This document shows positions 3,001 to 35,735 of a stretch of 64,000 bases of DNA, piece by piece. The translations under genes were made by a program, and so were the position numbers. Under the pieces are notes generated by a model. That model worked only from the letters and a program-made list of their open reading frames with translations. It was not told the origin of the DNA and searched no databases. Source of the DNA: Thermoplasmatota archaeon. Lineage in GTDB: Archaea; Thermoplasmatota; Penumbrarchaeia; Penumbrarchaeales; Penumbrarchaeaceae. Position 1 is the stretch's first letter; every line of letters begins with the position of its first letter. The stretch spans positions 4,602 through 68,601 of the forward strand of contig JARVGK010000010.1 of the NCBI GenBank assembly GCA_029762535.1, read 5' to 3'.

Positions 3001-3697
3001 GACCGACGTGTACGGGATCGAACACTCTTTCTCTCTTCAAATGACGCTGCTCCCCGAGGAGCATGATTCGGACGGGGACGGTATGCCCGACCTGTGGGAG
3101 AGGCGATACGGCCTGGATCCCCTTGACCCCCTTGACGGTTCGGAGGACTCCGACGAGGACGATCTGACCAACTATCAGGAATACCTCAACGGGACCGATC
3201 CCTTCGATCCGGACACGGACAAAGACGGCATGCCCGACGGTTGGGAGGTCAGGTACGGGCTGGACCCGCTTCGGTTCTCCGCCCTGGACGATACGGACGG
3301 GGACGGCAGAACGGATCTCGAGGAGTACCTTTCAGGGTCGGATCCCACGGTCAAGGACGTCGCAAGGTCCAGAGGTATCAGGATCTCATTTGCCGTCGTC
3401 GTTATCGTGGCATTGCTATTCCTCATCCTCATCGCTGTAGTGATGTCGCTCGCCATGAGCCTTGGAAAGGTCAGCAGGAGGATAGTTGATCCGAACGGTG
3501 AAGGGGAAATGGACATCAAGAACGGGGACAACGGGATCGCTCAAAACGGGGTCAGATACATGGATCCCATGGACCCCATGAACATGGGTATCCCGATCCC
3601 CGACGTCGAGGAGAAGGCGATCCAATCTGATGTAAAGGACGGCGAGGTAAATGGGAGAAAGCCACCTCAGAAGAGATACCCCGTCTATGTCCTTTGA
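2..3697 (+). CDS. Giant surface protein, 5'-truncated at window edge. Contains beta-propeller (SBBP-like) repeats with recurring NFPTTPGAY / DAFV motifs, two thrombospondin type-3-like Ca-binding modules (DxDGDGMPDxWExRYGLDP...EYLxGTDP), a C-terminal TM anchor and a ~80 aa cytoplasmic tail.
   Basis: The reading frame is open back to nt 2 (GLSDAFV matches the internal repeat motif), so the gene starts upstream of the window. Recurring repeat motifs, an Asp-rich TSP3-like module, and a hydrophobic stretch FAVVVIVALLFLILIAVVMSLAM near the C-terminus. Confidence 0.7.
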   Translation, partial: GLSDAFVMKMDTTTGDLIYSTLIGGDLWDGIHDMIVDEQGWVYVCGGTYSSNFPTTPGAYSRSRKGETDAFVLILNENGSDIIHSTLVGGSTHDRFYGIRRNREGNVIVSGHAEDSDYPTTPGAFDRTYAGGGDIVVTILDPELSSILFSTYAGGAGREAVEAIDIDSLGNIYLCGFTDSDDLPTTYGEYDTYGGNRDAFFMVFEPDLGSLKRSTYIGGSDIDEAKHVALDGYGSVMVSGITQSSDFPVTGSGFGPGGGRDLFLSVFRDEIGTNPIRFDPAIPRTGEELRISLDAVDIDPDTALFHYSVDDGPLSTIEAIKVGEGRFRLRFDVPNDAVLIDHYHEYLIAGNVVRRSSVEMLPVIDDEPPILVADRSDRIASMGSHYAFEFTVSDNVGISSASVEYNLDDGTPKTMALTGKNDLSGSITIPYAARTLAYRLIASDAWGNHARVDTIRVEVVPPSYELIYSAYMDDDPEWRREGDGFFWSGSSYRIEGGYGYAGADVDGIEGSFVLEYDIGIDVLEMGSSLSFGLRDADMSGAGQMAEIAFGSGSFTDYVELRTIDVNGKSKEVRAALDIPEGELYRCRIRYDPQVEAVYGTVIKLDGFTEASSLVIEDVKAFDDLSTVCSSNLGSDATGESSGRIDDVLLFKERRTALIARDLGPDNATTGDPVYLSALLSDPARISSAVLEYGFDDGTPMRTALVVDQVVGLHVAVPPNALEISYRFLVTDLYGIGDASALRAIPVMDNDPPEIIEDRTAEMAQAGANLSISVMVEDNIGVEEVWVEYSIDGSAPSIVALSGDREFYGQIRVQGGSLLRYGIHARDTSGNVGKGPLRTLEIIDAHPPFLSRDRTPVKGVVGEVFRFEIEANDNSGAFTAWVDLSLGGRDRQRIIMDGEGGIRYAEVSIYASLARSINYTIFISDMSGNSISIGPKFATLENPFINALPSGSVMLYEGENLEDLMRLPPFVVTSSLSHIRGGRIVQGVPSDPGLYTMHVRLTDVYGIEHSFSLQMTLLPEEHDSDGDGMPDLWERRYGLDPLDPLDGSEDSDEDDLTNYQEYLNGTDPFDPDTDKDGMPDGWEVRYGLDPLRFSALDDTDGDGRTDLEEYLSGSDPTVKDVARSRGIRISFAVVVIVALLFLILIAVVMSLAMSLGKVSRRIVDPNGEGEMDIKNGDNGIAQNGVRYMDPMDPMNMGIPIPDVEEKAIQSDVKDGEVNGRKPPQKRYPVYVL

Positions 3698-7399: not shown

Positions 7400-10258
7400 T
7401 CATTCCTCGGCTTCCCATTCGGAGGATCCCTTAGATCTCCTAATGACGAACATTATAAGGACAAGGATAGCCAGGATGACCATCACCGCAGCGAGTATCA
7501 CGAAAGCTATCCATGGATCGCTGCTCTCTTTCTTGTCCGACACTCCCGGATCCGTCCCTTTCAGATACTCCTCCAGATTGGTGTATCCATCCCCGTCGGG
7601 ATCGAGACCTGCATCGTCGGGATCGGAATCGGATAACCCGTATCTCTCCTCCCAATCCATGGGGATCCCGTCGCCGTCGTGGTCCTTCGTTCTATCGATC
7701 CCCACAAGAATGGTCCAGTTCAACACCGTTATGCCACCCTCCCCGTCATCTGCGCTGAGGGTTATGAAATAGGAACCGGCCTCGTCGAAGATCATCGAGA
7801 ACCCCTCATCGGTCCTGGTGACCTGCGCTCCCTCGGCGGATATGGAGACCTCTACCTCATCCGAAGGGTCAGAAGCCTCATCTATCTTCACTAGAAGCGT
7901 CTGGTCCTCGAGCATGGTCCCATCGGAGTTTGGATAGACGAGAGACGCCCTGAGAGTCGGTTCGACGTTATAGGCGATCAACGTGAGGTTGGAGTAGGTC
8001 ATGCCTCCGTCATCATCCCTCACCGCTGCATGAACCGTATAGTTCCCATCGTTCGGGAGAACGAATGCATACGAAGAATTCTCCAATGTCAGGTTCGACC
8101 ACTCCGAGAACACACCATCCAATGACCATGATATCATCATCGGATCGTGAGGAGCATCGGTCGCTTCCACGCTGATGATGACAGTATCGCCCTCGTTCAC
8201 CTCGACCGCGCTCGCCTCGATCGACACCACGGGTGCCCTGTTGAGGACCGAAACGATCGCATTATATGAGACGGTCCTTCCGAACCCGTCATTTACCGTT
8301 ACGGAAACGTTGTATTCCCCGTCATCCATGAATGTGTGTTCGATAGATGAGGACGATGTGTTGATACCCGAACCGTCGATCATCCAGGAGAACTCATAAG
8401 TGTTGTCCGGGATATGGTCGAGTATGTTGGATGTGAACATCGCGCTCTCGTTCTCGAATATGGTTTCCGGGCCCGTGAAGTTAACTGTGAGCTCATCCTT
8501 GTAAAAGACCAATGTCACGAACTCCCCTGTTACATCATCGTCGGGGTCCGGGTCCTGTCCGGGCATCATGGTAACGGTCCCGTTCTCATAGGAGACAGTG
8601 ACGTTCTCGGCTTCATATCCCGTCATCATCCACCCTCCCGGTATTACTGCGCTGCCTATTGTTTCCTCGAACATATCATCGTATGTCATATTGAATACAA
8701 GGGAGCGTAATGCCGAGTCATCCAAGGTTCCGTTCAGCACATATCTACCGCCGACCCTCAACTCCATCGGGACCATGAGGTCCACAGGGCCCGTGAGGTT
8801 AATGAAATCGAAATATCCATCGACCCTGTCATAGTAAAGGCCGTCAAGGGTGATGTTCCCGGTGGTATTGAAGCCGAAAGGTGCCGATGCCATCTCATCG
8901 TCATCCTCCATGGCCATCGCGAGGAAATCCTCCAATTCCTGATCGTTGAGAACCTGATCACCATCCCCCATCATTAGGTCCATGAACAGCCTCATGTACC
9001 TGGTGGAGTTGACGTGAGTTTTCATCACACCATCCACTTCGAACGCCTCCCAGCCATCGAAGGATATGATGTTGGTGGCCGTGCTGTTCTTCGAATCCCT
9101 CAAAGAAATCTCGAGTTCCATGTCCTCATCAACGGTAATGGGTGCGAAATACGTCTCGTACTCCCAGCCATCGAACGGGTCCTCCCCGCCGATGATGAGA
9201 TGGCCCGGCACGTCGGACACGATCATGGAAAAGTGTCCCTTATCATCCGTCCTTAATGCGTTCTGGTCCGGGAAAACCTTCGATTGAATGAAGTTCACAG
9301 CGATGTCCTCGAGCGGATCCCCGGCTTGGTCCGTTAAGGCCCCCGACAGTTCATACTGCCTGTATCCAAGTGTGATATTGTACCAGAATACCCCCCCTTC
9401 CGGGATATCGACCCTGGAGAAGTGGAAATCATAGTCATCCGACATGGTGATGATCATATGCATCCCTTCCCAGAACTCGAACTCGTAATATCCAGCCTCA
9501 TCGACCATGGCCATGAGCTGGAAATCCAGGTACTGGTCGAATATTATGACGAGTATCTCCTCAAGCGCTGAGGCCCCGTCGGTGACGTATCCTTTGACCG
9601 TTGTCCTCATCTCCGGGATCATGGGGATCCCTATGTCGAGTTCATAGGGGCTCATCTCCTCCTCGAAGGATGAGTATTCCTCATGAACGATCAGTCCCCT
9701 GAAAAAAAGGCGGAAAGAGTAGAATGCCGGGAATATCTCAAGGGAGAACTCTCCCGATGCATCGGTCATGGCCTCGTATTCGTAATGGTCGGATCCTGAG
9801 AAAGAGGCGTATTCGAGAACGACCCTGACCCCCTGGGCGTCATCCCCGCCCTGGACGAAATGAACGTGTCCATTGATCTCCACGGTCTCGTTCGGGCGGT
9901 TGGACAAAGTGACGTTGTGAACGTTGGTCCCAACATCCAGTATCAGGCCCTTGCTCCGATAGAGCAGGTAGCCGTCCTTCACAACCTCGACGATGACGTG
10001 GCTCGTCATATCGAGGTAGAACGAGTAATGGCCGGTCCCGTTCGTGATCGTGCTGTTGAGGAATTCCATGTCGGTACTCATGACCCTTACAGAAGCTCCC
10101 TCAACAGGCGCTTCGGAGGCGTAAGTGATGTAACCTTCGATCCAGTATTGGGGTTTTCTTGTATATCCCTCCGCTTCCGAAGATGCGAAAAGGGGGAACA
10201 ACAAGGCCAAGGCGATCGCTATACCGATGGTTGATCTGAGGATAGAATTCCCATACAT
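7400..10258 (-). CDS. Giant surface protein with signal peptide, carboxypeptidase-regulatory-like/PKD beta-sandwich domains, one thrombospondin type-3-like module, a C-terminal TM anchor and a short tail ending EWEAEE.
   Basis: N-terminal hydrophobic signal [20 protein letters not shown]-like block ([11 protein letters not shown]...[10 protein letters not shown]). [47 protein letters not shown]-terminus [37 protein letters not shown]. Confidence 0.7.
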
Positions 10259-10385: not shown

Positions 10386-13300
10386 TTACTCTTCCCATAC
10401 CTCGTTGGTCCTATCCGTTCTCTTGTTCCGATTAAATATAAGGATTATCATAGCTGCGATGATGATGATCAAGAGAATGATCGATGCGAGGGCAATAAAG
10501 GGCATCATACTGTGACCTTTATCATATGCCGAGATATCGAAGCGAATGGATCGGTTCACATGCTCGGAGGAGGCCTCAAAGATCAGAACATGGATCCCGG
10601 CCTCCCCCTGGGGGACCTCCACCTCGATGATGACCGATTCGGTCCCACCCGGCAGGATCTCGAGCCGCTCGACGCTCAGACCGCACCAGGAAGGGGGCAG
10701 GCCATTTATCTCCAGCTCCACGACGATGGGGATGTTGCCCTTATTCGTCACATTGACGATGAACTCGAACTTCTCCCCCGTTCTGACCCTGCTCTTGTTC
10801 TCCGAAGGGCTCAGATCAAAGTCGTATAGAGTGAGGACGGTCACATTCACGGATCTTGAGATCACCAGCTTCCCGTCGTTCATATCGACCTCGAACAAGA
10901 GCGTATCGACGACCCCCGGAGGGATCCCCTCCGGGATCCTGATTGATATGCCCATGGCAGCGCTCCTACTGGATCCTATCCAGCCCCTTTCACCGCTCAA
11001 TATCCTTATGGATAGGTCCACGGATGATGATGCGCTGAGGCGATAGTCGAACGGCATGTTCCCGGCGTTGATCAACTCGAGGTCCAACGTCATTTCCTTA
11101 CCGGGCGGACCGGAAACGATCATCGGATAGAGCAGGTCCGCTCTAAGAATTTCCAGGATATTCAGATCTATCGACAAGGAGGCCGAAGCGTTGTTCAACG
11201 ACATGGCCCTCAGAATGAACGCAACGGATGAGGGAGGCAGGGCCTCGTTCAAAGCTACGTTCAAGGTAGCTGTCCTCTCCTCGAACGGCGCCATACGAGA
11301 ACCGTTGAAGGATATACCGAACTCCCACTGACCAACGGGCTCGACCGTATCGAAGACCACATCGTCAATGATGTTGCCCGTGTTCCGCACCGATACGCTG
11401 ATCGTGATCGTGGAATACGGCTCGATCCCGACCTCCTCCTCGGGCCCTTTCAGAGATATACCGTGGATCGATCTCGCTATCAATGTCAGGTTGATCGTGT
11501 CCAGAAGCCCCTCTGACGTGAAGGCACCGAGGACAACGCTGCACCATTCTCCGGCGAGAGTCGTTGGCGGGGCGGTCATTTTGAACGATATGGAGGCCTC
11601 CTCACCATACTGTACCTGTGTGCTGTTGACGAAAGAATGGTCCCAGATCGTTCCTTGTACGGACAGGACCTCGATCGACGTATTCAACATCACATTGCCC
11701 GTGTTCCTCAACAGAACTGTGAAAGGGATCTCCTCCCCCGGATCGGCGTGAAGCGTCACGACCTCCGATATGAACTCGGCCCTGAGGACGTTCCCAACCA
11801 ATACCGCAGCCTCCGTTTCAGCTGATATATATGGATCCCTCAAGGAGAACGCAGTGATGATGAGGTCGTATGCATTTCCCCCTGAAGCGTTCTCGGGAAC
11901 TATGAAATGCAAGAGGGCCCATCTTTTCTCATTCGCGATCATCTTAGAGCCGTTGAACTCGATCGTGATGGGAGACTTCAAGGATCCGCATACGGCCTGG
12001 ATGCTGATATCATCGAGGTCGTTCCCGGTATTGGTGATGTTAACATCGATCAAAGTACGCTCGCCAGGGTCATAGGATGATCCCCGAACCGTCGCATCGA
12101 TGAGGATCCCTCTTACCGTCGATGCGATGGTTTCGACCTCGATCTCGGTGAATATCGAGGGATCGCCTTCCATCTCTAATCTTACCAGCAACACCATGAT
12201 GTCTCCGGATAGGGCATCATCGGGAACAATGACGCTCAGTGATAGATCCCTCTTGATGCCGGGTTCGATCCCTGTCCCGTCGAAGGAGGCGTTCCATACC
12301 CATGACGGATCGTCCGATGCGATGATGACATCGAGATCCGATTCTGAGCTTCCATGGAACAATACATCGATCAGATATCCGACGCTCTCTCCGGGATCGG
12401 CGTATCCGATCCGGTTCCCCCCCGGGACCTCTATTCTATCCGGGGGGGTCCAATGCTCGGACATCCCTATCAGGAACTGCCCGATCCCGGCCGCCCCCCA
12501 GTACCATCCGGGGCAGTATTCGGCGGTATCATCGATATCCTCCTTGTAATTCCATCTCCTGACCCCGGGAGAGATCTCCTCCGACATGTTCATGACCCAG
12601 TTCGCGGACCTTACGGCGTGGTCAAGATAGGTCTCGTTGCCGGCCATCTCATAAGATGTCATGAAGGCGTATCCTATGCCGGAATTGCCCATGAGAAGCC
12701 CGGTAATGTATTCGCTTCCTCCTATAAGGTGCGGCCATTTGAGCTCGTCCTCGTTCACCTCGACCCGCTGGTATATTATCCAATTCATTATCCTCTCGGC
12801 CGCATCAAGGTATTTCGGATCACTCGTTGCCTTATGGAGCGAGAACAGAACGATGGCATGGCTGGGATCCCCGTGGCAGAGGATATTGGTATGATCTATG
12901 CTCATCATCCCCTCCCCCATCATCGTCCCCTGACCTACGGTCCAATTGGCCCCGGCCATGGCATTCTCGAGGTATGTCGAGTTACCGGTAGCCTCCCACA
13001 TTCGAATGAAGAACTGGACGATCCCGATGGTGCCCCCGCACCAGGACCGGTCCGGGTCCGGATCCCCCTCCACTCTCACCCACGCCTTCTCCCCCGGACC
13101 CATGTCCATTCCCATCGAGATGAGCCATCCGGCGCCTCCAAGGGCGTAGTCGAGATAAGCCGTGTTTTGAGTGTCCGAGTGGATCTCCATAAGGACATGG
13201 GACAGCCCAGCCGTGCCGTGGTACCATCCCGTCATGTTGTGATCTATCGTCGAGAACGACTTCCATTTGTAACCCCCTGGCGCGGGCACGGCCTGATCAA

Positions 13301-13841
13301 CGAGCCAGTTGGCGCCTTTTACCGCATAGTCAAGATATGTGGAGTTCCCGGTGGAGCGATACAGCATCGAGAGGTATTCCATCGTCGAGCCTATGCCCCC
13401 TAAATAGTCGGGGTCGTATATGCCCCATCCCTCATATTTGGACCATCTGCATGAGTTCGGACCAACCCCCTCGGCAATGGATATGAGCCATCTGCCCGTT
13501 CCTTCGGCAAACTCCAGATATGTCCCGTTCCCGGTGGCATGATAGAGCTCCAGGAAGAACTTGCCCACACCGACCGCGCCCATGGACTGCTCTGTCATGA
13601 AACGATCGCTCTCGAGATCGGAATTGTACCACTTGTACTGCCCGGGAGCGGGCTCCATCGCGATCGACATCAGCCATCTGGCCGCGGATTCGGCATGGTT
13701 TAGGTATGGATTGTCGTAGGGTTCGAGAGCTGGCGCGTCCCTGGTCGGCTCGACCCATCCGGAAGGCACCTGGATATGGAGCGTGAAGATCAATGAAAGA
13801 ACAACAAGAGAGGTGGCCCATCTCACGTTCATTCCTCCCAT
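10386..13841 (-). CDS. Giant surface protein with signal peptide, an N-terminal LanC-like (lanthionine synthetase C-like, alpha/alpha-toroid) domain, multiple CARDB/NEW3-like beta-sandwich domains, a C-terminal TM anchor and a tail ending VWEE.
   Basis: About seven ~55-aa repeats with G-x-A/G-G and GN-x-TYL-x-x-A-x-x-x-x-W-L signatures. The LanC zinc-ligand triad is in order: HG (GWYHGTAGL), WC-x-G (SWCGGTIGIVQFF), CHG (ILCHGDPSHAI). Downstream there are NTGN-type beta-sandwich repeats. C-terminus FIALASIILLIIIIAAMIILIFNRNKRTDRTNEVWEE. The start may instead be Met4 (13832), giving an ATGA overlap with the upstream gene's stop. Confidence 0.65.
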   Translation of the reverse strand: MGGMNVRWATSLVVLSLIFTLHIQVPSGWVEPTRDAPALEPYDNPYLNHAESAARWLMSIAMEPAPGQYKWYNSDLESDRFMTEQSMGAVGVGKFFLELYHATGNGTYLEFAEGTGRWLISIAEGVGPNSCRWSKYEGWGIYDPDYLGGIGSTMEYLSMLYRSTGNSTYLDYAVKGANWLVDQAVPAPGGYKWKSFSTIDHNMTGWYHGTAGLSHVLMEIHSDTQNTAYLDYALGGAGWLISMGMDMGPGEKAWVRVEGDPDPDRSWCGGTIGIVQFFIRMWEATGNSTYLENAMAGANWTVGQGTMMGEGMMSIDHTNILCHGDPSHAIVLFSLHKATSDPKYLDAAERIMNWIIYQRVEVNEDELKWPHLIGGSEYITGLLMGNSGIGYAFMTSYEMAGNETYLDHAVRSANWVMNMSEEISPGVRRWNYKEDIDDTAEYCPGWYWGAAGIGQFLIGMSEHWTPPDRIEVPGGNRIGYADPGESVGYLIDVLFHGSSESDLDVIIASDDPSWVWNASFDGTGIEPGIKRDLSLSVIVPDDALSGDIMVLLVRLEMEGDPSIFTEIEVETIASTVRGILIDATVRGSSYDPGERTLIDVNITNTGNDLDDISIQAVCGSLKSPITIEFNGSKMIANEKRWALLHFIVPENASGGNAYDLIITAFSLRDPYISAETEAAVLVGNVLRAEFISEVVTLHADPGEEIPFTVLLRNTGNVMLNTSIEVLSVQGTIWDHSFVNSTQVQYGEEASISFKMTAPPTTLAGEWCSVVLGAFTSEGLLDTINLTLIARSIHGISLKGPEEEVGIEPYSTITISVSVRNTGNIIDDVVFDTVEPVGQWEFGISFNGSRMAPFEERTATLNVALNEALPPSSVAFILRAMSLNNASASLSIDLNILEILRADLLYPMIVSGPPGKEMTLDLELINAGNMPFDYRLSASSSVDLSIRILSGERGWIGSSRSAAMGISIRIPEGIPPGVVDTLLFEVDMNDGKLVISRSVNVTVLTLYDFDLSPSENKSRVRTGEKFEFIVNVTNKGNIPIVVELEINGLPPSWCGLSVERLEILPGGTESVIIEVEVPQGEAGIHVLIFEASSEHVNRSIRFDISAYDKGHSMMPFIALASIILLIIIIAAMIILIFNRNKRTDRTNEVWEE

Positions 13842-16800
13842 ATCGAGGTCTCCTGCCTCCGTTTAAGGACGAATGCGGCACCTGCGATGATCACAGCGAG
13901 CACGAGGATGATCGCTATGACCACCAGAACGGGCGATAGCCCCCTCTGGTTCGAGTCCCGTTCGACAACGTTGAGCTTCAGGAGGATCGTGCTGGTGGAG
14001 GACCCGTCCGATGCGCTGACCTGTATCGTATGAGGGCCGGGGGCGAGGTCCTGGGTCGGCACCGAGAGCGTCAGGTCCCTTGATGAGTAGGGGCCCATAT
14101 CTACCGGGGACGGAGGGTCCACCTCGCATTCGATCCCTGCGTATACCGAGGCGGATACAACGCCGTTCCCCGCATTCTCAAGGATCAGCCTGAATACGGC
14201 AATGGAGCCGCTCTTGACTTCCACATCGGTGTTATCGCAGGTCAATTCCAGATCGGAGACCCTCTCCGGGGACACCTTCATGGACAGGTATGTCGCCGGA
14301 CCGCCGTCCACAACGGACACCGCCCTCAGCATGACCGCCTCTTCGGACCCCAAGAGCATCGATCGCGGCAATTTGACCTGGAATATGTGCCATTTGGTTT
14401 CCCCGGGACCGATCCGGACCGTCGAGTTCGGGGACAGTATAACCAGAGCGCTCCCGGATGAGACATTGACGGAGATCTCGTCCAATCCGTTACCCGTGTT
14501 CACTATCTCCACCTCGACCTCGACCGTCGATCCGGGGAGCGCCGAGATGTTAGAGGGGAGGTGGCACTCGAATCCAGGCATCCGGTCCACGGTGATGTGT
14601 ATGCCGAGATCGGATCGGCTCGACGGATCCCCCGCGGATATGCAGCTGACGTTGATCTGCTCGGTATCCCCCTCGAGGGAATCAACAGGGACCGAGATGT
14701 TAAGGTGGAGCATCCAGCTCTCTCCCGGGAGGACGCTCGCGCCCTCCGTGAAAAGGACTGCCTCCCAACCCGATCGGTTCTTCAACACGAGTTCCAGTTC
14801 GTCGGGGGCGTTCCCGGTGTTGACCACGGGGATGGCAAAGGATAGCATCTCTCCGGGTTTGGCGAAGGCGCGCACCTCGTCGTGGACCACGGTCAGCGAA
14901 TGGAGAGCCCCGACGCTAATGCGGACCTCGAGCGGGTCCGAGGCGTTCCCTGAGGATGATGCCATCAATGAGACGAGGTCCGTTTCGCCGAACGCAGCAT
15001 CGTCCGGGACAAGTAAGGTCACCGCTCCCGCCCTTTTCTCTGCCGGCACCATGCCCGTCCCGTTGAAATCGATATCACCGCTCCAGTTCACGAATGCGGC
15101 ATCCAGTGTGATGTCGTCCATGCCGTTGCCCGAGTTCTCCACGGTGATCATTATTTCCACGATATCGCCGGGTAGGGCATTCCGGTGAACATCATCCTCA
15201 AGTATCCTCACGCCGAAAAGGTGCCCCACTTCTGTCTCTATCGCGACCGTGACGCTCTTTTCGGGATCGCTCGCGGAGGTGAAGGACAAGAGAGCGGTGA
15301 ACGTCTCGTGATGCATGGAACCGTTCGGCGTCCTCACGATGACCTCAACCGCTCTGCTCCCTCCCGGTGGGACATCGGACCCGTCAAGGTCAAGGCTCAG
15401 ATCCCATCCTTGGGGAGGCGTGGCGTGTTCGAGGACTATGTCATCCACGATATCGCCGGTGTTGAACACATCGAATGAGTAAGAGGCGCTCTCCCCGGGA
15501 AGGGCGATCCCTTTGAGTTCCGATGCGGAGGATCCCACGCCAAAGGTAGGGTTCCGCGTCAATCTGATGGTCAGATTGTAATATGTCACATCGTACATCG
15601 ATACCTCAGGGAGGCTGGCCTGGATGTGGAGCCTGGTCTCGCCGTCGAAGCGCTCCAGCACGTGAAAGACCCCGAGCGAGGGCTGCTCCTCAAAAACCAA
15701 CTCAACGCTGAGCGGATCGGTGTAATCGTGAGGCAGGACGATGGGCTCGTAGAACAGGTCCTCTCCATGATGGTACATATCCCAGTTGGGGAACCACGTG
15801 TCCACGGAAGGCGGCCGATGGTAGCTGATGTTGAGCTCCATGGTCGCCCCATCGACCCTTTCGAACTCTACCCTTGTCAGGTTCAGCCCAGGGTCATGAT
15901 CGTTCCTGAAAGGGTCGTGCATAGGATCCCCATAATAGACCCTATTGGATTTACCCCCAAGCATGGCGGCCGCGGAAGGCCATTCCACGGGATCGAAATC
16001 CCCGGAGGGCAGTATGTCCGGAAGGTAGGCGCTCTCCCCCTCATTGTAAAGGCGTAGGTTCGGGCTGTTTCCCATGAACCCCATCACGACCTGGTCCAGG
16101 GATCTCTTGTATATGTCGCCCATGGGCTCATGGTATCTAAGAGCGTTCCACTGGTCGAAATAGCTGTTGTATCCGTGGTTCGCCCCGATGGGTGCAAAAT
16201 ATCCCGTGGCGTTGTCACCCAAAATCCTGTTGAAGAAAGCGAAATCATCTGACATCTCGTAGAATCTCACAACCCCTTCCGTGTTGCCGAAGGTCGCTGC
16301 GATATCCCCCTCGACCAGGGCCCTCTTGGGCACTCCTGAATGGCATGTCCCCGCGAACACGACCGCGGGGTAGAGATCTATCCCGCTCAGGTTCTCGGGT
16401 GTCAATCCCATCCGGGCATGGGCGGGATCCTCGATCTTCGCAGGGTCGTAGGTCCATACGGGCGGGTCAGGGTCGAGGTTCCCTCCTTTGAATAGCCATG
16501 TCATATGTGGATCCCCGTCCCCGCTGATGGTAACCATCCTCGATCCTTCGAGGTCCGCCGCGTTATCGAGGAAGAAGTCCCTTCCGGAACCAGTGTCGTT
16601 GACCTCCATATACAGGTGGACCTCCGAGTCCCTCACGATCTTGTGGAAGCTGTTCGAGCCGGTCACCCTCCAGTTCAGGGAGCTTGCGGAATATCCGGAC
16701 ACTTTCATAGGGAGCAGATGAGCCTCTTCCTCCTCCGCCCTGATGATGTTCTCGACGAAGGAGAGGGCGTCAGCGGGCGTCGCCCCGGTTATGTATCCCC

Positions 16801-17188
16801 ATGAGAAGTCAGGGAAGGGATCGTCGTCCAGCGTTGTCGAGTTCATGACGAAGGACCTGTGGAAGTTGATGTCCATCTCCAGGGGTCTGACGACCACGGC
16901 GACGTATCTGGCATCCATCTCCTTCAGGCCCTCCATGAGAGATGGGAGATCGTCCACGGAGAACTCGATCACGGTCCCGCCCCTGAATAGCGCCAATGCC
17001 TCGGCGGCATCCCTGTAGGGATCCGTCGAGTTCGCCGTTGTCGCAATGACGTACGTCGATGGCACATCCAACACATTAGGCGTCCCTTCGACGTTACCGC
17101 CTGAGATAAATGAATAAGGAAAAGAGGGGCCTGCTATGAGGAGAAGGACGACGATCGAGATCATACCAGGAACGTTTAGAGAATGCAT
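13829..17188 (-). CDS. Giant surface protein with signal peptide, an N-terminal clan-CD peptidase C25 (gingipain)-like domain, at least five CARDB-like domains, a TM anchor and a tail ending SIWEE.
   Basis: The N-terminal region (YVIATTANSTDPYRDAAEALALFRGGTVIEFSVDDL ... SGDGDPH ... AVVFAGTCHSG) resembles the C25 propeptide/catalytic region, with a His-then-Cys order. CARDB-like repeats: FDVFNTGDIVDDIVLE, VENSGNGMDDITLD, VVNTGNAPDELELV, IVNTGNGLDEISVN, ILENAGNGVVSASV. C-terminus VLVVIAIILVLAVIIAGAAFVLKRRQETSIWEE. Confidence 0.6.
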   Translation of the reverse strand: MHSLNVPGMISIVVLLLIAGPSFPYSFISGGNVEGTPNVLDVPSTYVIATTANSTDPYRDAAEALALFRGGTVIEFSVDDLPSLMEGLKEMDARYVAVVVRPLEMDINFHRSFVMNSTTLDDDPFPDFSWGYITGATPADALSFVENIIRAEEEEAHLLPMKVSGYSASSLNWRVTGSNSFHKIVRDSEVHLYMEVNDTGSGRDFFLDNAADLEGSRMVTISGDGDPHMTWLFKGGNLDPDPPVWTYDPAKIEDPAHARMGLTPENLSGIDLYPAVVFAGTCHSGVPKRALVEGDIAATFGNTEGVVRFYEMSDDFAFFNRILGDNATGYFAPIGANHGYNSYFDQWNALRYHEPMGDIYKRSLDQVVMGFMGNSPNLRLYNEGESAYLPDILPSGDFDPVEWPSAAAMLGGKSNRVYYGDPMHDPFRNDHDPGLNLTRVEFERVDGATMELNISYHRPPSVDTWFPNWDMYHHGEDLFYEPIVLPHDYTDPLSVELVFEEQPSLGVFHVLERFDGETRLHIQASLPEVSMYDVTYYNLTIRLTRNPTFGVGSSASELKGIALPGESASYSFDVFNTGDIVDDIVLEHATPPQGWDLSLDLDGSDVPPGGSRAVEVIVRTPNGSMHHETFTALLSFTSASDPEKSVTVAIETEVGHLFGVRILEDDVHRNALPGDIVEIMITVENSGNGMDDITLDAAFVNWSGDIDFNGTGMVPAEKRAGAVTLLVPDDAAFGETDLVSLMASSSGNASDPLEVRISVGALHSLTVVHDEVRAFAKPGEMLSFAIPVVNTGNAPDELELVLKNRSGWEAVLFTEGASVLPGESWMLHLNISVPVDSLEGDTEQINVSCISAGDPSSRSDLGIHITVDRMPGFECHLPSNISALPGSTVEVEVEIVNTGNGLDEISVNVSSGSALVILSPNSTVRIGPGETKWHIFQVKLPRSMLLGSEEAVMLRAVSVVDGGPATYLSMKVSPERVSDLELTCDNTDVEVKSGSIAVFRLILENAGNGVVSASVYAGIECEVDPPSPVDMGPYSSRDLTLSVPTQDLAPGPHTIQVSASDGSSTSTILLKLNVVERDSNQRGLSPVLVVIAIILVLAVIIAGAAFVLKRRQETSIWEE

Positions 17189-18920: not shown

Positions 18921-20269
18921 CGCAGCTCGATCCCCCTGCGAGTAACGTACATGAAATATAGATATGCAGTGTGGAATCCATTGATCAGATCGTAAACGGT
19001 CTTAAGTGGCAGATACTGGACGAGGCCCCTAGTCTCTTTATACTGGACGAGGATCAAGACCCTCATAAGGAAATAGAACGCTACGAGAATGACGCTCCGC
19101 AATGCGATGAACTCGAGGAGCGAGTGATAGGACAAACCCGTAAAAAGCAACGTTATGGTAAGTAAGAACGATACAAGGAAAATAAGGGCGGACAATGTCG
19201 TGGAGATCCATGTGAAATAAGTGTACAACGCCCAGGGATTTCGCCAGAGATGCCATTTGTTCTCCCTCCACGCCTGGAACTGACCGAAAATCCATCTCCT
19301 TCTCTGATTGAACCATCCGGTCCATGAGACCGGCGCTTCGGTATACGACCTGGCACCCGGTGCGGCCCTCGTCGTATATCCGGTGGACAGGATCGACATG
19401 GTCAGGTCGCAATCCTCAACGACCGTTCTATCCAAAGGCGGATACATACGAGCAAGGTCCGTTCTCATGCCGAATATCGGGCCAGGGGCTATAAGGACGG
19501 ACCCATCCTCGCTCTGGCACGTCCTTATCACATGCTGGGTGATTATGTATTCGAGCTGCTGAAGCTTCGTTAGGGTTCCGGCAAAGGTGTTCCTTATCGT
19601 CACGAAACCGCCAACAATCCCGGCGTCCGGGTATGCCCTGAAGGTCTCTACTATCTCGGAGACGGCGTTCTTGTCCATCGTGCTGTCCCCGTCGGTCATA
19701 AGTACGATAGGCCCCGTGGCTTTTTGGATCCCGTAGGTGAGGGCCGAGGCCTTGCCCCCGTTCTCTTTATGATATATCTTAAGGTCCCTGCGTCCCGATC
19801 CGCCCTTGAATATACTGGATACAGACCATGTATTGTCCCTGGACCCATCGTCGATCACCAATACCTCTATCTCTCCCCGATAGGTCTGATCGTAACAGTT
19901 CAGTATCGCCCTGCCCACGTTGAGCCCTTCGTTGTAGCAGGGAATGATGATTGATACCTTTGGATATCTCGATCGGGCGAAGGGATCCGGTCCTGAACCC
20001 GTTCCTGTCCTCTTTCGGAACTTCCCGGAAAACGCCTTTGAAATGGTCGAACGTACCGCCAGATATGTGAACGGGAAGACGTTCGCTAGAATGAAGAACG
20101 TGTAGTATAGGTCCAAAATGAGATAGAGGGGGCCCCCTTGATGGATCTCCTCGGCGTCAAGGACCAATTTTCCGTTGCCTATGGAAAGACCCAGATGTGC
20201 GGGGATAGCGATAAGGGGCAGTGTCAATACCATTGCAAGCATTAGGCATACAACGATGGATATCCTCAT
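18890..20269 (-). CDS. Membrane-integrated processive family-2 glycosyltransferase (cellulose/chitin/PNAG-synthase-like).
   Basis: GT2 signatures: IIIPCYNEG, VLVIDDGSRDNT, MTDGDSTMD, and the processivity motif Q-x-x-R-W (NQRRRWIFGQ). TM segments flank the catalytic domain. The start is probably Met9 at 20269 (MRISIVV...), which gives an ATGA overlap with the stop of the upstream GHL10-like gene. The ORF-track start is 20293. Confidence 0.75.
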   Translation of the reverse strand: MRISIVVCLMLAMVLTLPLIAIPAHLGLSIGNGKLVLDAEEIHQGGPLYLILDLYYTFFILANVFPFTYLAVRSTISKAFSGKFRKRTGTGSGPDPFARSRYPKVSIIIPCYNEGLNVGRAILNCYDQTYRGEIEVLVIDDGSRDNTWSVSSIFKGGSGRRDLKIYHKENGGKASALTYGIQKATGPIVLMTDGDSTMDKNAVSEIVETFRAYPDAGIVGGFVTIRNTFAGTLTKLQQLEYIITQHVIRTCQSEDGSVLIAPGPIFGMRTDLARMYPPLDRTVVEDCDLTMSILSTGYTTRAAPGARSYTEAPVSWTGWFNQRRRWIFGQFQAWRENKWHLWRNPWALYTYFTWISTTLSALIFLVSFLLTITLLFTGLSYHSLLEFIALRSVILVAFYFLMRVLILVQYKETRGLVQYLPLKTVYDLINGFHTAYLYFMYVTRRGIELRWGHRRVVVH

Positions 20270-23200
20270 GGAAGGACCACCCCGTCCGACCATTCGATAT
20301 CCTCCTCGAGTAACTCCTCGAACTCCACTTCTTCGTCCCAGATGATCTCCTCTTCCAGCTTCGGGGCCAGCTCATCGGGCGTGTCGATCATGTCCATGAC
20401 GGGATCGTCCACATCTTCCGGGGCGGATATCATGGACACGTATTCGTCCAGGTCCTCGTCCATCTCCATAACATCCTCGTAGAGAGAGCCGTGTATCGTT
20501 CGATGCGAACTGCCATCGTTCACGCGAGGGACGCTCATCGAAGGGTATCTCGACATCAAAGGAAGGGGTCCGCCGCCCATGTTACTGGAGAGGATCCTGA
20601 GCCTACTGCCCATATCCGCAGTCCCGGATGGGTACAGATCACCACATGTATCGATGCAGAATTCATCATCTTCTGCGTCGGCAGGGTTCTTGGGCCCTCT
20701 CCTATATCTTATGATCAGGATCGCGATCGATGCTGCCGTGACAAGGAATGACATTACCAAAAGGGAGAATATGGAGGCCAGTAAGAGGGACGAGGCGGTC
20801 TGTACCTCCTCGATAGAGGTCCGGTTGGCATCATCGGGCGGTGCGATTATTACGACCTGGGTCACCGTAACGTTCTCTATCGGCGGAAGGAATACATCCA
20901 CTTTGGAGAGGTCCGTGAGATCCCTTGCCAATCCGGTGTTGAGGTCCGTCGAAACGGTCGCATGCGTCTCCGCGTAGGAGAAAATGCCGTGATCGTCGCT
21001 TACCCAAAGACCGATCCGATAATGACCCGGATCAAGGGTGAGCGAGATCGATGGAAGGTTCGAGATGTTCACACCATCCAGGGACCATGTCGTTCCCATC
21101 ACCCATCCGTCCGCATCGAACGAACCAGAGGATGAGAGTTCTAAGGATCCCCCACGATAACAATCGATATTACCCGTGATCACGGGGATAGGGGCCATGT
21201 TGCTCGATGATATCTCAGCGGAGAAGCCCCCGACATGCCCAGCCCTATCCACGGCCCTAACTTTTATACTGATGGTGCGTCCGGGGTCCCTTCTCATCCA
21301 GGTCCAGTTCCGATCGGTCGTTCCCGTCATTTCCCAATACGGACCTCTGAGGGACCATACCTCGTAATGGTCTATGCCGGAACCGGGGAGGTCCATGGAC
21401 CGCTTCCAACTTATGTTGTATTCGAGGTTGGTATTATTCCTCACCGATATCATGGTTTGAGATGGGGCGGTCGGGGCATTGAGGTCCACCAATACTGGAA
21501 CGCTATCCTCTTCTGTGCTCAGACCCGCGTTGCTCTCAACGGTTAGCTTCAATGTGTATCGGCATCCCTCGGTCAGTGACCCCTGGTAGGTAAAAGATGT
21601 GCCGTTGACCATAATATTTTTGAAGACCACGCCTCTGTTTCCGTTACCCGCATCGTATAACAGTGTCGCGAGGGAACCCTTGATCCCCGAAACCGGAACG
21701 AAGGTCTCCTTCCATCTCCATGTGATTTGTTCCTGAGTGATGATGGAGGATCCCGCATCTGGCGTGGATATCCTTGGATTGGACCTGTCAAGGCACAGTT
21801 CGACCCGCCCGAACTCGCTTCGCGAACCGAACTCATCCACCGCTCTAACCTCGATCAAGTGTTCTCCTTCAACGAGTCCCTCCATCGTAAGGACTGTCGA
21901 ATCTGTGACGGATATATCCCCCCCGTTCAACCTCCATTCGTAGAACGAGATCCCCGCCAGACCCTCGATCGGATCCCAGATGATATCGACCGGATCCGAG
22001 GAGGTCCAACCTTCAGGTGCACCATACGGCTGCGGAGTTGATGGAGGCGGTATATCGCTGTGATATCGAAGGTCCTCGACCGTCCTGTTATTCTGTGTGG
22101 TGAACCGGAGGAAGAATGACATGTCGTGATCGAGCACCACGATCTTCAGCAGCACCCTGTTGATGCCATGCTTCAAACTCACCATTGTGGTGTTCTGGTC
22201 CGGTCCGACATCCCGTTCTTCATCGATGACAAGTGCGACCTCTCCGTTGATCCACACTTTGATCGCATCCGAGCTCCCTATCCTCATTTGGACATCCATA
22301 TCACGAGGGGATATGACGAACATATGGGAATACGCGACCGAATAAGATGTGTGACCGTACACAAGGTCCAGGTCGATGAGGTCCCTGTCCATGGTGGCGT
22401 CGGTCCACGGCCTTCCTCCGGTTATCGTTCCCGCTCGGGGCACTATTTCCGCCTCGTTCTCGAAGAACGTCCTTTCGAGAAGGCCCTTGGAATGACCTGT
22501 AAAGAACGTTCCTGCGGAAAGCCATGTCCTGACGCTGTAAGGCATCCATGAAAGGTGTATGGACCCAATGGTTATGTTCGATGCATCTTCGAACCTGGGG
22601 ACCACCCGGATGTATCTTATGTTCCCCAACCATTCGGGATGATCGTCGAGATGGATCGAAACTATGCCCCACCTGGCCTCCTTCATGACCTCTGTACGGA
22701 CCATCATCGGCTCCGAAAAACGCGTATGATCGTTGGACCAGTAGACATCGATGAAACAACTCTCATCATCTATGGCCGCGTCGATCTCGATAACGTTGAT
22801 ATCCTTCGCATTGATGCCCAATAGCGGCGACATAAGCCCGGCTTCCTTGGAATTCGCTATCGTCCATCTACCGCCTCGGGGGTAATGATGGCCCGAATCG
22901 GTAAGCCTCCAACCTTCCCTGTCTTGGTCATGCTCGAAATCCCATTTCAGATCGGTCACTGCCGTGGTCTGGTTCTTGAGCGGACAACTGGCATATTCCT
23001 CAAAGGGGTCTCCGACGAGGGCCTGACCATAGGACGGATAGCTCCTGAGGAACTTGTAAGAGAAGAGACATACGCCCAATGCGTTGCTGGACAGTGCGTA
23101 GTTGACCTGCGCGTTCATGGTCTCGATCCCGACGGTCTCGTTCGGGACCGAGCCATGGGCGGTGTTCCCAGGCACATATACGTAAGTGCCAGCAACGACC

Positions 23201-34526: not shown

Positions 34527-35735
34527 TCATATGGACCCGAACTCGATCGCTATCTTTTTGCCGTATCCCCTGCATTCTTCGAGGGAGGCCTCATCGGGGT
34601 TCCAGAGGGCCTTGACGCCGTCGTCGATCACTTCGAGACCAGCATTCTCAAGAAGGCCCTTGAGCATCGACGGGGATTCCCCGCTCCATCCGTAGCAGCC
34701 GAACACGGCCGCCTTCTTCCCCTTGAAGCCAAGGCCGCGTACCTCCTCCATTATCCCGGCGACCGCGGTGAGGATCCCCCTGTTGATGGTCGGGGATCCC
34801 ACAACGACCCCCTTGGACCTGAAGATCTCGGTTATCACGTCGTTCTTGTCGCTCTGGGAGAGGTTGAACAGCTTCACCACAACCTCCGGGTCCTCCAACG
34901 TCGCTCCCTTGGCGATCTCCTCGGCCATCCTTCGGGTCCCGCCCCACATGGTGTCGTACAGGATGGTTATCTGGTCCTCTTTGTAGGCCTGGGACCATTC
35001 CATGTATCTATTGACGATCTGTATCGGGTCCTTCCTCCAGATCACCCCGTGGCTGGTGCATATCATATCGAGGGGGACGTTCAGAGATACGAACTCCTCG
35101 ATCTTCCTCTTGACAAGGGCGGAGAAGGGCGTGAGTATGTTGGCGTAGTATTTCATGCACTCCGTCCACAGCTCGCAGGGGTCAACGAGATCGTTGAACA
35201 TCTTCTCCGAGGCGTAGTGCTGGCCGAAGGCATCGTTGCTGAAAAGAACGTTGTCCTCCGTCATATAACAGAACATGCTGTCGGGCCAGTGCAGCATCGG
35301 GGCCTCGATGAAGATGAGCTTCTTCCCGTTGCCCAGATCGAGGGTGTCCCCGGTCTTGACCGGATGGAAGTCCCAGTCCTTGTGATAATGACCCTTAATC
35401 GATCTGATCCCGTTCGCAGTGCAGTATATCGGGACGTCGGGGATCTCCTCCATGAGCCGGGGTAATGCCCCGGAGTGGTCTATCTCCGCGTGGTTGGCTA
35501 TGATATGATCTATCCTCGAGAGATCGATCTCCTTCTTCAGGTTCTCTACATACTCATCGGCAAAAGGAGCCCATACCGTATCGATGATCGCCACCTTCTC
35601 CTCCTCTATCAGGTAGGAGTTGTAGGTGGATCCCTTGTGGGTAGAATATTCGTCACCGTGGAACTTCCTGAGCTCCCAGTCTATCTTCCCGATCCAGCTT
35701 ATGTTGTTCTTTACCTTGAGCCTCATTTCGGCCAC
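34527..35735 (-). CDS. fprA: Flavodiiron protein (FprA-type O2/NO reductase) with a metallo-beta-lactamase-like domain and a flavodoxin domain.
   Basis: Diiron-site motif region HAEIDHSGALP and a C-terminal flavodoxin fold (AAVFGCYGWSGES). The start could be GTG 35735 or ATG 35726. An AT-rich element lies ~20-30 nt upstream. Confidence 0.75.
   Translation of the reverse strand: MAEMRLKVKNNISWIGKIDWELRKFHGDEYSTHKGSTYNSYLIEEEKVAIIDTVWAPFADEYVENLKKEIDLSRIDHIIANHAEIDHSGALPRLMEEIPDVPIYCTANGIRSIKGHYHKDWDFHPVKTGDTLDLGNGKKLIFIEAPMLHWPDSMFCYMTEDNVLFSNDAFGQHYASEKMFNDLVDPCELWTECMKYYANILTPFSALVKRKIEEFVSLNVPLDMICTSHGVIWRKDPIQIVNRYMEWSQAYKEDQITILYDTMWGGTRRMAEEIAKGATLEDPEVVVKLFNLSQSDKNDVITEIFRSKGVVVGSPTINRGILTAVAGIMEEVRGLGFKGKKAAVFGCYGWSGESPSMLKGLLENAGLEVIDDGVKALWNPDEASLEECRGYGKKIAIEFGSI

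What the first reader, a model, noticed from the sequence alone, without database searches (positions are those of the whole stretch)
10386..13841. Extracellular LanC-like domain with intact zinc-ligand triad fused to a CARDB-rich, membrane-anchored surface protein
The N-terminal ~450 aa behind a signal peptide contain the LanC alpha/alpha-toroid repeat pattern (G-x-x-G ... GN-x-TYL-x-x-A ... W-L, about seven times). The three LanC zinc-ligand motifs appear in canonical order: HG (GWYHGTAGL), WC-x-G (SWCGGTIGI), CHG (LCHGDPSH). LanC/LanCL enzymes add thiols to dehydroamino acids or electrophiles and are normally cytoplasmic. An ectodomain version anchored to an archaeal cell surface together with adhesin-like CARDB domains is unusual. 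It could point to thioether chemistry, such as cross-linking or detoxification, at the cell surface.
Basis: partly seen in the sequence, partly recalled or inferred. Interest (0 to 1): 0.7.

Follow-up and report, generated by a model that had tools for sequence, protein, structure and literature searches.

The report
Cell-surface LanC-like enzyme, gingipain-like partner
An uncultured archaeon appears to display on its outer surface a zinc enzyme domain of the kind that normally makes sulfur bridges in peptides inside cells, and it is always encoded with (in some bacteria fused to) a protease-like surface protein, pointing to unexplored peptide sulfur chemistry outside the cell.

Summary

Best reading: an extracytoplasmic LanC-type zinc-thiolate enzyme working with a gingipain-like partner on extracellular peptides or proteins. 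Identity and topology are well supported. The chemistry is inferred. I rate it a new variant of a known kind.

The parts
10386..13841 (-). LanC-like surface protein gene, 1151 aa
   Evidence: ORF list. The exact protein is found on one metagenome contig.
13752..13841 (-). N-terminal leader (res 1-30): R7, a hydrophobic core at res ~9-22, then a low-confidence linker. Either a signal peptide or an N-terminal anchor.
   Evidence: Hydropathy. AF2 gives a helix at 5-22 and a low-confidence linker at 23-40. No dedicated signal-peptide predictor was available.
12459..13709 (-). (alpha/alpha)7 LanC-like toroid, res 45-461
13407..13409 (-). D145, candidate equivalent of the essential LanC active-site Asp (motif D-h-h-G-G-x-G)
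   Evidence: 89% conserved in 37 motif-bearing relatives. Aligns with T-D-I-I-S-G-x-A-G in the fusion proteins. Equivalence to NisC D141 is inferred.
13218..13220 (-). H208 of the HG motif, candidate catalytic acid/base
   Evidence: Aligned with the AHG motif of LanCL2 and GCR2.
13038..13040 (-). C268 of the W-C-G-G motif, candidate zinc ligand 1
   Evidence: Aligned with the WCHG motif of LanCL1, LanCL2 and GCR2.
12873..12878 (-). C322-H323 of the C-H-G motif, candidate zinc ligands 2 and 3
   Evidence: Aligned with the CHG motif of LanCL1, LanCL2 and GCR2. Replaced by C-C-G in the Planctomycetota and fusion clade.
10518..12434 (-). Six Ig-like beta-sandwich modules (res 470-1108), five with an N-x-G-N motif. 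They form the stalk between toroid and membrane.
   Evidence: Motif scan. Only weak Pfam hits to Ig_VWA7, DUF7507, FixG_C and CARDB.
10434..10508 (-). C-terminal transmembrane helix, res 1112-1136
   Evidence: Hydropathy peak of 3.4. Sequence shown.
10389..10433 (-). Predicted cytoplasmic tail NRNKRTDRTNEVWEE: basic, then acidic with one Trp
   Evidence: Positive-inside rule. Similar W-E-E tails occur on both neighbouring surface proteins.
13829..17188 (-). Partner gene, 1119 aa. Its stop codon overlaps the LanC-like start region, so the two genes form a bicistronic unit.
   Evidence: The pair is conserved in L002, L004 and L005, and L003 is consistent.
15569..17056 (-). Gingipain-fold (clan CD) domain plus IgSF-like beta-sandwich of the partner, res 45-540
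16340..16345 (-). C282-H283 (G-T-C-H-S-G) of the partner: the conserved clan-CD Cys position with an adjacent His
   Evidence: C282 is conserved in at least 90% of 31 homologues. The canonical G-H-G His is replaced by G-D-G.
13829..15568 (-). Partner stalk: Ig-like modules (NCBIfam choice-of-anchor T, 81 bits against a cutoff of 70), a TM helix and the tail ...SIWEE

Best explanation
**What it is.** The gene encodes a type I membrane-anchored, probably N-glycosylated surface protein of a Thermoplasmatota archaeon.

**Shown**
- Its N-terminal ectodomain is a LanC-fold (alpha/alpha)7 toroid.
- The toroid keeps the complete LanC catalytic set at sequence level: zinc ligands C268, C322 and H323, the acid/base H208, and probably D145.
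- Six Ig-like modules separate the toroid from a single C-terminal TM helix.
- The gene is translationally coupled to an upstream gene with the same architecture, whose head domain has a gingipain (clan CD) fold.
- The toroid/gingipain-like pairing is conserved across archaea and bacteria, as an operon or as a single fused secreted polypeptide.

**Inferred**
- The two heads work on the same extracellular peptide or protein substrate.
- The LanC-like site uses zinc to activate a cysteine or other thiol for conjugate (Michael-type) addition to a dehydroamino acid or similar electrophile, or catalyses the reverse reaction. Either way, it forms or opens thioether links without ATP.
- The gingipain-like domain binds, cleaves or transpeptidates that substrate.

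It is not a lanthipeptide biosynthetic cyclase. The substrate is unknown. Given the many surface peptidases in this genome, processing of external or cell-surface proteins is the likeliest setting.
For: **Identity of the toroid**
- Pfam LANC_like 73 bits. LanL and LanM cyclase models reach E 1e-33.
- A PDB profile search ranks LanCL2 first at 1.3e-12, followed by CuvL, LanKC and LanCL1.
- The AF2 model has pLDDT 87 and pTM 0.84, with 7 helix pairs.

**Active site**
- H208, C268, C322 and H323 align with LanCL motifs.
- In 37 relatives (median 32% identity to the window) chosen only for those four residues, D145 (89%), R256 (95%) and W267 (92%) are also conserved.
- The bacterial clade has C-C-G in place of C-H-G. 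The same variant occurs in a bona fide LanM, P0246.

**Topology**
- Leader, single C-terminal TM, basic residues after the TM, and 20 sequons.
- Homologues of the partner domain carry T9SS secretion tails.

**Coupling with the partner**
- The stop and start codons overlap.
- The pair is conserved in L002, L004 and L005 while the flanking genes differ.
- The two genes are adjacent in Planctomycetota loci L013 and L014.
- Ten fusion proteins exist, in both domain orders.
- The bacterial toroids match LANC_like nearly end to end, at 140-153 bits.
- In the loci held, every partner-associated toroid keeps its Cys ligands and no ligand-less toroid has the partner.

**Not a lanthipeptide cluster**
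- No LanB, LanM dehydratase, kinase or lyase domain in any of the window's ORFs of 200 aa or more.
Against: - No enzyme activity, metal content or substrate is known for any member of this clade.
- Many leader-bearing relatives, including the Asgard ones, have lost the Cys ligands. The fold can therefore serve a zinc-independent role.
- A zinc-thiolate site and free thiol substrates are hard to maintain outside a cell unless the habitat is reducing. The flavodiiron gene at 34527-35735 only hints at an anaerobic lifestyle.
- No extracellular source of dehydroamino acids is evident.
- The partner lacks the canonical clan-CD catalytic His (G-D-G instead of G-H-G), so it may not be a peptidase.
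- The leader was judged by hydropathy alone.
Confidence: 0.6

Rival explanations
1. Pseudo-enzyme or binding module. The toroid is a non-catalytic peptide- or ligand-binding head on a surface stalk, acting as a receptor, an adhesin or a substrate-presenting subunit for the partner. On this view the LanC motifs are retained for fold stability or structural zinc only.
For: Many leader-bearing relatives lack the Cys ligands yet persist. The partner also lacks its canonical catalytic His. In Planctomycetota the partner domain is fused to anti-sigma (zf-HC2) and BlaR1-type M56 sensor modules, which suggests sensing roles. The archaeal proteins have conserved cytoplasmic tails.
Against: H208, C268, C322-H323 and D145 are all kept across 23-74% identity. 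The CHG-to-CCG switch is between two arrangements that both occur in canonical LanC-type domains (CCG is seen in the LanM P0246) rather than random decay. Every partner-associated toroid examined keeps its ligands.
Confidence: 0.22
2. Glycan-active six-hairpin-type enzyme. The toroid is a divergent glycoside hydrolase or lyase (GH127-, GH76- or GH88-like) acting on surface or environmental polysaccharide, in keeping with the glycan genes nearby.
For: Pfam GH127 (46 bits), GH76 (33) and GH88 (30) all exceed their cutoffs. GH76 reaches E 1.7e-8 in the PDB profile search. GT2, GHL10 and GH18 genes lie upstream.
Confidence: 0.07
3. Misread topology or a classical lanthipeptide cyclase. The N-terminal hydrophobic stretch is not an export signal and the toroid is a cytoplasmic, tail-anchored LanC working on a precursor encoded elsewhere.
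For: No dedicated signal-peptide predictor was run. Archaeal class II lanthipeptide clusters do exist (PMC7268733, read).
Against: Basic residues follow the C-terminal TM, which indicates a cytoplasmic tail. There are 20 sequons and six Ig-like modules. About 70% of the top relatives carry N-terminal leaders. Partner homologues carry T9SS secretion tails. No dehydratase, kinase or lyase domain was found among the window's ORFs of 200 aa or more, and no Cys-bearing small ORF lies on the operon strand in the flanking gaps.
Confidence: 0.04

Closest known systems
Eukaryotic LanC-like proteins LanCL1 and LanCL2 (glutathione S-transferases acting on dehydroamino acids) and plant GCR2
   Different: They are cytosolic or peripheral inner-leaflet proteins (own knowledge). 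They have no leader, Ig stalk or TM anchor and no gingipain-like partner. The glutathione-binding residues were not examined here.
Lanthipeptide cyclases: NisC and MadC (class I), and the cyclase domains of LicM2 and CylM (class II), CuvL and SalKC
   Different: There is no dehydratase, kinase-lyase or precursor gene nearby, and the location is extracytoplasmic. It is therefore not part of a RiPP pathway.
Gingipains RgpB and Kgp, and PorU (peptidase family C25, clan CD), for the partner domain
   Different: There is no Pfam Peptidase_C25 match. The canonical G-H-G histidine is replaced by G-[D/N/C]-G, with a His moved next to the Cys (T-C-H-S-G). The window carries a separate, bona fide C25 gene at 55937-59755.
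GH127 beta-L-arabinofuranosidase (DUF1680) and other six-hairpin glycosidases
   Same: Same Pfam clan-level helical-hairpin architecture, with partial HMM matches. GH127 also uses Cys and zinc (own knowledge).

Membership tests
LanC-like superfamily (Pfam PF05147 LANC_like) | Score above the Pfam gathering threshold | tested here: met
   73 bits against a cutoff of 23.2, E 2e-20, res 139-393 matching profile positions 99-334 of 350. Bacterial partner-associated relatives score 140-153 bits nearly end to end.
LanC-like superfamily (Pfam PF05147 LANC_like) | Double seven-helix (alpha/alpha)7 barrel | tested here: met
LanC-like superfamily (Pfam PF05147 LANC_like) | Zinc ligands Cys (W-C-x-G) and Cys-His (C-H-G) | tested here: met
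   C268 and C322-H323 align with LanCL1, LanCL2 and GCR2. This is a sequence-level test only.
LanC-like superfamily (Pfam PF05147 LANC_like) | Catalytic His of the H-G motif | tested here: met
   H208-G209 aligns with the A-H-G motif of LanCL2 and GCR2.
LanC-like superfamily (Pfam PF05147 LANC_like) | Essential active-site Asp (NisC D141 equivalent) | tested here: inconclusive
   D145 lies in a D-h-h-G-G-x-G motif, is 89% conserved, and aligns with T-D-I-I-S-G in the fusions. No residue-level superposition on NisC was possible.
LanC-like superfamily (Pfam PF05147 LANC_like) | Bound zinc with tetrahedral geometry, and thiol-addition activity | not testable with these tools
Lanthipeptide biosynthetic cyclase (LanC proper, or the LanM, LanKC and LanL cyclase domains) | Dehydratase function (LanB, LanM N-terminal domain, or kinase plus lyase) fused or encoded nearby | tested here: not met
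   No such Pfam family was found in any of the window's ORFs of 200 aa or more, nor around L011, L013 or L014.
Lanthipeptide biosynthetic cyclase (LanC proper, or the LanM, LanKC and LanL cyclase domains) | Cys/Ser/Thr-rich precursor peptide gene nearby | tested here: not met
   On the operon's strand, the two intergenic gaps flanking the pair hold no Cys-containing small ORF. The only Cys-bearing ORFs there lie on the opposite strand, including a 74-aa one running antisense into the LanC-like gene. Small ORFs inside coding regions were not assessed.
Lanthipeptide biosynthetic cyclase (LanC proper, or the LanM, LanKC and LanL cyclase domains) | Cytoplasmic location | tested here: not met
   Leader, C-terminal TM with a basic cytoplasmic flank, and 20 sequons. 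This is an inference from sequence.
GH127 (PF07944) glycoside hydrolase | Full-length catalytic-domain match and an (alpha/alpha)6 barrel | tested here: not met
CARDB (PF07705) | Score above the Pfam gathering threshold | tested here: not met
   19.8 bits against 22.7 on the whole protein, and 13.5 bits on the one module that hits at all.
Peptidase C25 / clan CD (partner protein) | Gingipain-type catalytic fold | tested here: met
Peptidase C25 / clan CD (partner protein) | Pfam Peptidase_C25 match | tested here: not met
   No hit at E <= 1. The window's other C25 gene scores 157 bits.
Peptidase C25 / clan CD (partner protein) | His-Cys catalytic dyad (G-H-G ... A-C-x-x-G) | tested here: inconclusive
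   Cys282 is conserved in at least 90% of homologues. The canonical His position is Asp in the window (S-G-D-G-D-P-H-M). H228 and H283 are nearby alternatives.

The most novel reading that the evidence does not exclude
The LanC-like toroid and the remodelled gingipain-fold domain together form a previously unrecognised, ATP-independent, extracytoplasmic protein-modification module shared by Thermoplasmatota and Planctomycetota. It would install or open thioether (lanthionine-type) cross-links on cell-surface or environmental peptides. The partner's Cys-His(-Cys/Asp) centre would supply or process the substrate. This would be LanC chemistry operating outside the cell and outside RiPP biosynthesis.
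Probability: 0.3. Interest if true: 0.85.

Novelty: new variant of a known kind. Interest (0 to 1): 0.7.

Why it matters
LanC-type enzymes are known as cytoplasmic peptide cyclases and, in eukaryotes, as cytosolic glutathione transferases that repair dehydroamino acids. An exported, membrane-anchored version with an intact catalytic set would place zinc-thiolate conjugate-addition chemistry at the cell surface, where neither a thiol donor nor a dehydroamino-acid source is obvious.

The link to a gingipain-fold domain holds across two domains of life and in two fusion orders. That gives a concrete, testable two-component system, including natural single-chain fusions that are convenient to express.

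Thermoplasmatota of this type carry many surface peptidases. The pair could therefore bear on how cross-linked or otherwise recalcitrant proteins are processed in sediments or sludge, or on how archaeal and planctomycete envelopes are matured. It also shows that the "unclassified" fraction of LANC_like proteins set aside in genome-mining studies (PMC7268733) contains a coherent secreted subfamily.

Tried and rejected
2. **Lanthipeptide gene cluster.** Rejected. No dehydratase, kinase or lyase domain was found among the window's ORFs of 200 aa or more, and no plausible precursor ORF lies in the gaps flanking the pair.
3. **Functional link to the upstream GT2, GHL10, GH18 and TPR genes.** Rejected. 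These are not conserved in related loci.
4. **LanC-like gene next to the Bacteroidota partner homologue.** One representative (P0162) was examined and none was found there.
5. **A conserved third component around the Planctomycetota loci.** None found. The neighbours are unrelated: AbiEii, HEAT repeats, CHAT-cyclase and FolD.
6. **Archaeosortase-type (PGF-CTERM) sorting signal.** No NCBIfam hit.
7. **Word-index homologue search.** It returned only 17 relatives and wrongly suggested rarity. The exhaustive profile search corrected this.
8. **Genome scan with the 18-sequence alignment.** Failed for lack of a conserved stretch. It was redone with the 5-sequence alignment.
9. **Literature.** Six searches and three papers read found no description of exported LanC-like proteins or of the gingipain-like pairing.
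10. **Zinc-site geometry.** Not possible, because model coordinates are not exposed.
Full report
**1. The observation**

The ORF lies exactly at 10386..13841 on the minus strand and encodes 1151 aa. Hydropathy finds only two strongly hydrophobic stretches. One is an N-terminal leader (MGGMNVRWATSLVVLSLIFTL...). The other is a C-terminal helix at residues 1112-1136, followed by NRNKRTDRTNEVWEE. The protein is acidic (pI 4.5), has only seven cysteines, and has 20 N-x-S/T sequons.

The hairpin motif ..TGNxTYLxxAxxxxxW.. occurs seven times, four of them as exact GN.[ST]YL (sequence). GWYHGTAGL (H208), SWCGGTIGI (C268) and LCHGDPSH (C322-H323) are present in that order.

**2. Is the toroid LanC-like or a glycosidase?**

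Sequence evidence:
- Pfam LANC_like scores 73 bits (cutoff 23.2, E 2e-20).
- GH127 (46 bits), GH76 (33) and GH88 (30) also pass their cutoffs, but each covers only about 80-140 residues.
- The NCBIfam LanL and LanM models match their cyclase portions at E about 1e-33.
- Against PDB sequences the best single-sequence hits are LanCL2, GCR2 and LanCL1. The printed alignments place H208, C268 and C322-H323 on the AHG, WCHG and CHG motifs of those proteins.
- A five-sequence profile raises LanCL2 to 1.3e-12 with the same register. GH76 follows at 1.7e-8.

Structural evidence:
- An AlphaFold2 model of residues 1-490, built on an 18-sequence alignment, is confident (pLDDT 87.3, pTM 0.84).
- It has 14 long helices in seven pairs. 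H208, C268 and C322/H323 each sit immediately before the start of consecutive inner helices.
- Foldseek ranks LanCL2, LanCL1, GCR2 and CuvL first, but with modest TM-scores and sugar epimerases close behind.
- The (alpha/alpha)7 GH47 mannosidases follow at 25.7. All (alpha/alpha)6 enzymes score 23.7 or below, and GH127 is not among the top 60.

The exact metal geometry could not be measured because coordinates are not exposed.

**3. The stalk**

Residues 470-1108 form six modules of about 105 residues. Five carry an N-x-G-N motif. Scanned individually, none passes any Pfam threshold, and CARDB reaches only 13.5 bits in one module. On the whole protein CARDB scores 19.8 bits against a cutoff of 22.7. 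"Ig-like beta-sandwich stalk" is accurate. "CARDB-rich adhesin" is not established.

**4. Organism and family**

The identical protein is on one metagenome contig with no taxonomy. A scan of GTDB species genomes finds the closest relatives in Thermoplasmatota or Thermoplasmatales MAGs: L002-L004 at 59-62% identity and L005-L006 at 45-47%. More distant relatives (25-30%) are in Gemmatimonadota, Chloroflexia, Planctomycetota and Promethearchaeota.

The word-index protein search found only 17 relatives, several named "LanC family protein" from Asgard archaea. The exhaustive profile search found far more: 693 cluster representatives at E <= 1e-30 and 13,708 at E <= 1e-3. The larger number certainly includes canonical cyclases.

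I profiled 173 sequences, made up of the top 150 representatives plus earlier hits and locus proteins:
- About 70% (122) have a hydrophobic N-terminal leader, by a crude hydropathy criterion.
- 40 keep H/C/C/H in a single long alignment, and 32 of those have a leader.
- Many others, including the Asgard members, have lost the cysteines.

In 37 sequences chosen only for the four residues (median 32% identity to the window), other positions are also conserved: D145 (89%), R256 (95%), W267 (92%), T204 and W193 (both 100%).

**5. The conserved partner**

The upstream gene (13829..17188, 1119 aa) ends ...TGG GAG GAA TGA, overlapping the LanC-like start region. AT-rich TATA-like boxes lie about 25-35 nt upstream of this gene and of the downstream 952-aa gene. 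That suggests a bicistronic unit, an inference from reading the sequence.

The partner's N-terminal 540 residues have no Pfam or PDB sequence match. The same domain nevertheless lies immediately upstream of the LanC-like gene in L002 (69% identity), L005 (48%) and L004. In L003 the contig starts inside the partner's stalk. The flanking genes differ between loci, and the glycan genes upstream in the window are not conserved.

C282 (G-T-C-H-S-G) is conserved in at least 90% of homologues. The canonical G-H-G histidine is replaced by G-D-G in the window and by G-N-G or G-C-G in most LanC-associated copies. Copies that do have G-H-G lack the His next to the Cys.

**6. Fusions**

Searching the toroid family with the partner domain shows that the two are fused in single polypeptides:
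- P0101 and P0113 have the order partner then toroid.
- P0075 and L011 (Planctomycetota) have the order toroid then partner.
- They are adjacent genes in Planctomycetota loci L013 and L014. In L014 the stop and start codons overlap.
- A search with P0101 added six further fusions. The seventh hit, P0217, is probably the L011 protein. In total there are ten distinct fusion proteins, all with leaders.

These bacterial toroids match LANC_like nearly end to end at 140-153 bits. They read T-D-I-I-S-G-x-A-G, F-S-H-G-T-A-G, G-W-C-H-G-P-A-G and x-C-C-G-A-A-G. The C-C-G variant also occurs in a bona fide LanM found in the same search (P0246, which carries PF13575). From my own knowledge, it corresponds to the ProcM-type three-cysteine zinc site.

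The partner domain is absent from the loci of ligand-less Asgard toroids (L030-L032) and from several ligand-bearing short forms. In the sample held, partner association implies intact ligands, but intact ligands do not imply a partner.

**7. What it is not**

No LanB, LanM dehydratase, kinase or lyase domain was found in any of the window's ORFs of 200 aa or more. None was found near the bacterial loci either. On the operon's strand, the intergenic gaps flanking the pair hold no Cys-containing small ORF. This is therefore a stand-alone LanC-like protein in the sense of LanCL, not a lanthipeptide cyclase.

**8. Mechanism**

Shown:
- The fold and the motif set.
- The topology signals.
- The operon and fusion linkage to a gingipain-fold domain.

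Inferred:
- The ectodomain binds zinc through C268, C322 and H323.
- It activates a thiol for conjugate addition to a dehydroamino acid or related electrophile, or catalyses the reverse reaction.
- It acts on the same extracellular peptide or protein as the partner, which binds, cleaves or transpeptidates it.

The gene-fusion evidence argues for a peptide or protein substrate rather than a glycan. The genome context fits a protein-processing surface. It includes a bona fide C25 peptidase at 55937-59755, an anchored M14 carboxypeptidase at 45729-48245, and a flavodiiron protein that hints at anaerobiosis.

The main rival is a non-catalytic binding or sensing role. It is supported by ligand loss elsewhere in the family, by the missing canonical His in the partner, and by fusions of the partner domain to anti-sigma and BlaR1-type modules in Planctomycetota.

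**9. Novelty**

Relatives of this protein are already labelled "LanC family protein" by some sources. However, six literature searches and three papers read found no description of exported LanC-like proteins or of the pairing with a gingipain-fold domain. The large lanthipeptide genome-mining study discards about 3,000 LANC_like proteins as "unclassified" (PMC7268733).

I rate this a new variant of a known kind: a known enzyme fold in a new compartment with a new, conserved partner.

Noticed in passing
window 7400-10258(-), 10386-13841(-), 13829-17188(-); L002, L003, L005: Three consecutive surface proteins end with a TM helix, a basic stretch and an acidic tail containing one Trp (...SEWEAEE...EVWEE...SIWEE). 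Their relatives end ...SWGEGAE...EDWGDNDE and ...DDDWEED. This may be a conserved cytoplasmic docking or sorting motif.
   Followed up: partly
window 15569-17056(-); P0205-P0245; L013, L014: The gingipain-fold domain comes in two forms. One has the canonical G-H-G ... A-C-[Y/L]-x-G. The other is remodelled to G-[D/N/C]-G-D-P ... T-C-H-[S/C]-G, in which Cys/His/Cys or Asp cluster at the old active site, possibly as a metal site. Most LanC-associated copies are of the second form.
   Followed up: partly
P0159-P0204 (Bacteroidota); P0225-P0245 (Planctomycetota): The archaeal partner domain is 43-49% identical to Bacteroidota proteins carrying T9SS tails, which suggests inter-domain transfer. In Planctomycetota the same domain is fused to zf-HC2 anti-sigma, M56 (BlaR1-type), caspase C14 and beta-propeller modules.
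   Followed up: partly
window 12459-13709(-): The conserved toroid hairpin motif G-N-x-T-Y-L is itself an N-glycosylation sequon in four of the seven repeats. The whole protein has 20 sequons.
   Followed up: no
L032 8001-11020; L030 6871-9509: Leader-bearing Asgard LanC-like toroids that lack the Cys ligands occur as two tandem genes after a cytochrome c assembly gene (Heimdallarchaeota). In Helarchaeota one overlaps a Prenyltrans (PF00432) gene. Neither locus has the gingipain-like partner.
   Followed up: partly
window 55937-59755(-), 45729-48245(+), 20266-24138(-), 24128-26923(-), 23-3697(+), 36023-40657(+): The window is dense in very large surface proteins: a bona fide Peptidase_C25 (157 bits), an M14 carboxypeptidase with a C-terminal TM, a GHL10 protein of 1290 aa, a GH18 with four PKD domains, and two DUF7948/SBBP beta-propeller giants.
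   Followed up: no
window 48894-50516(-), 50552-52342(-): Two adjacent ORFs of 540 and 596 aa have hydrophobic N-termini and no Pfam match at all.
   Followed up: no
L010 6777-9746; L014 5691-9206: Some ligand-bearing LanC-like toroids carry long N-terminal extensions with no Pfam match: about 430 aa in a Thermoplasmata MAG and about 780 aa in a Planctomycetota MAG.
   Followed up: no
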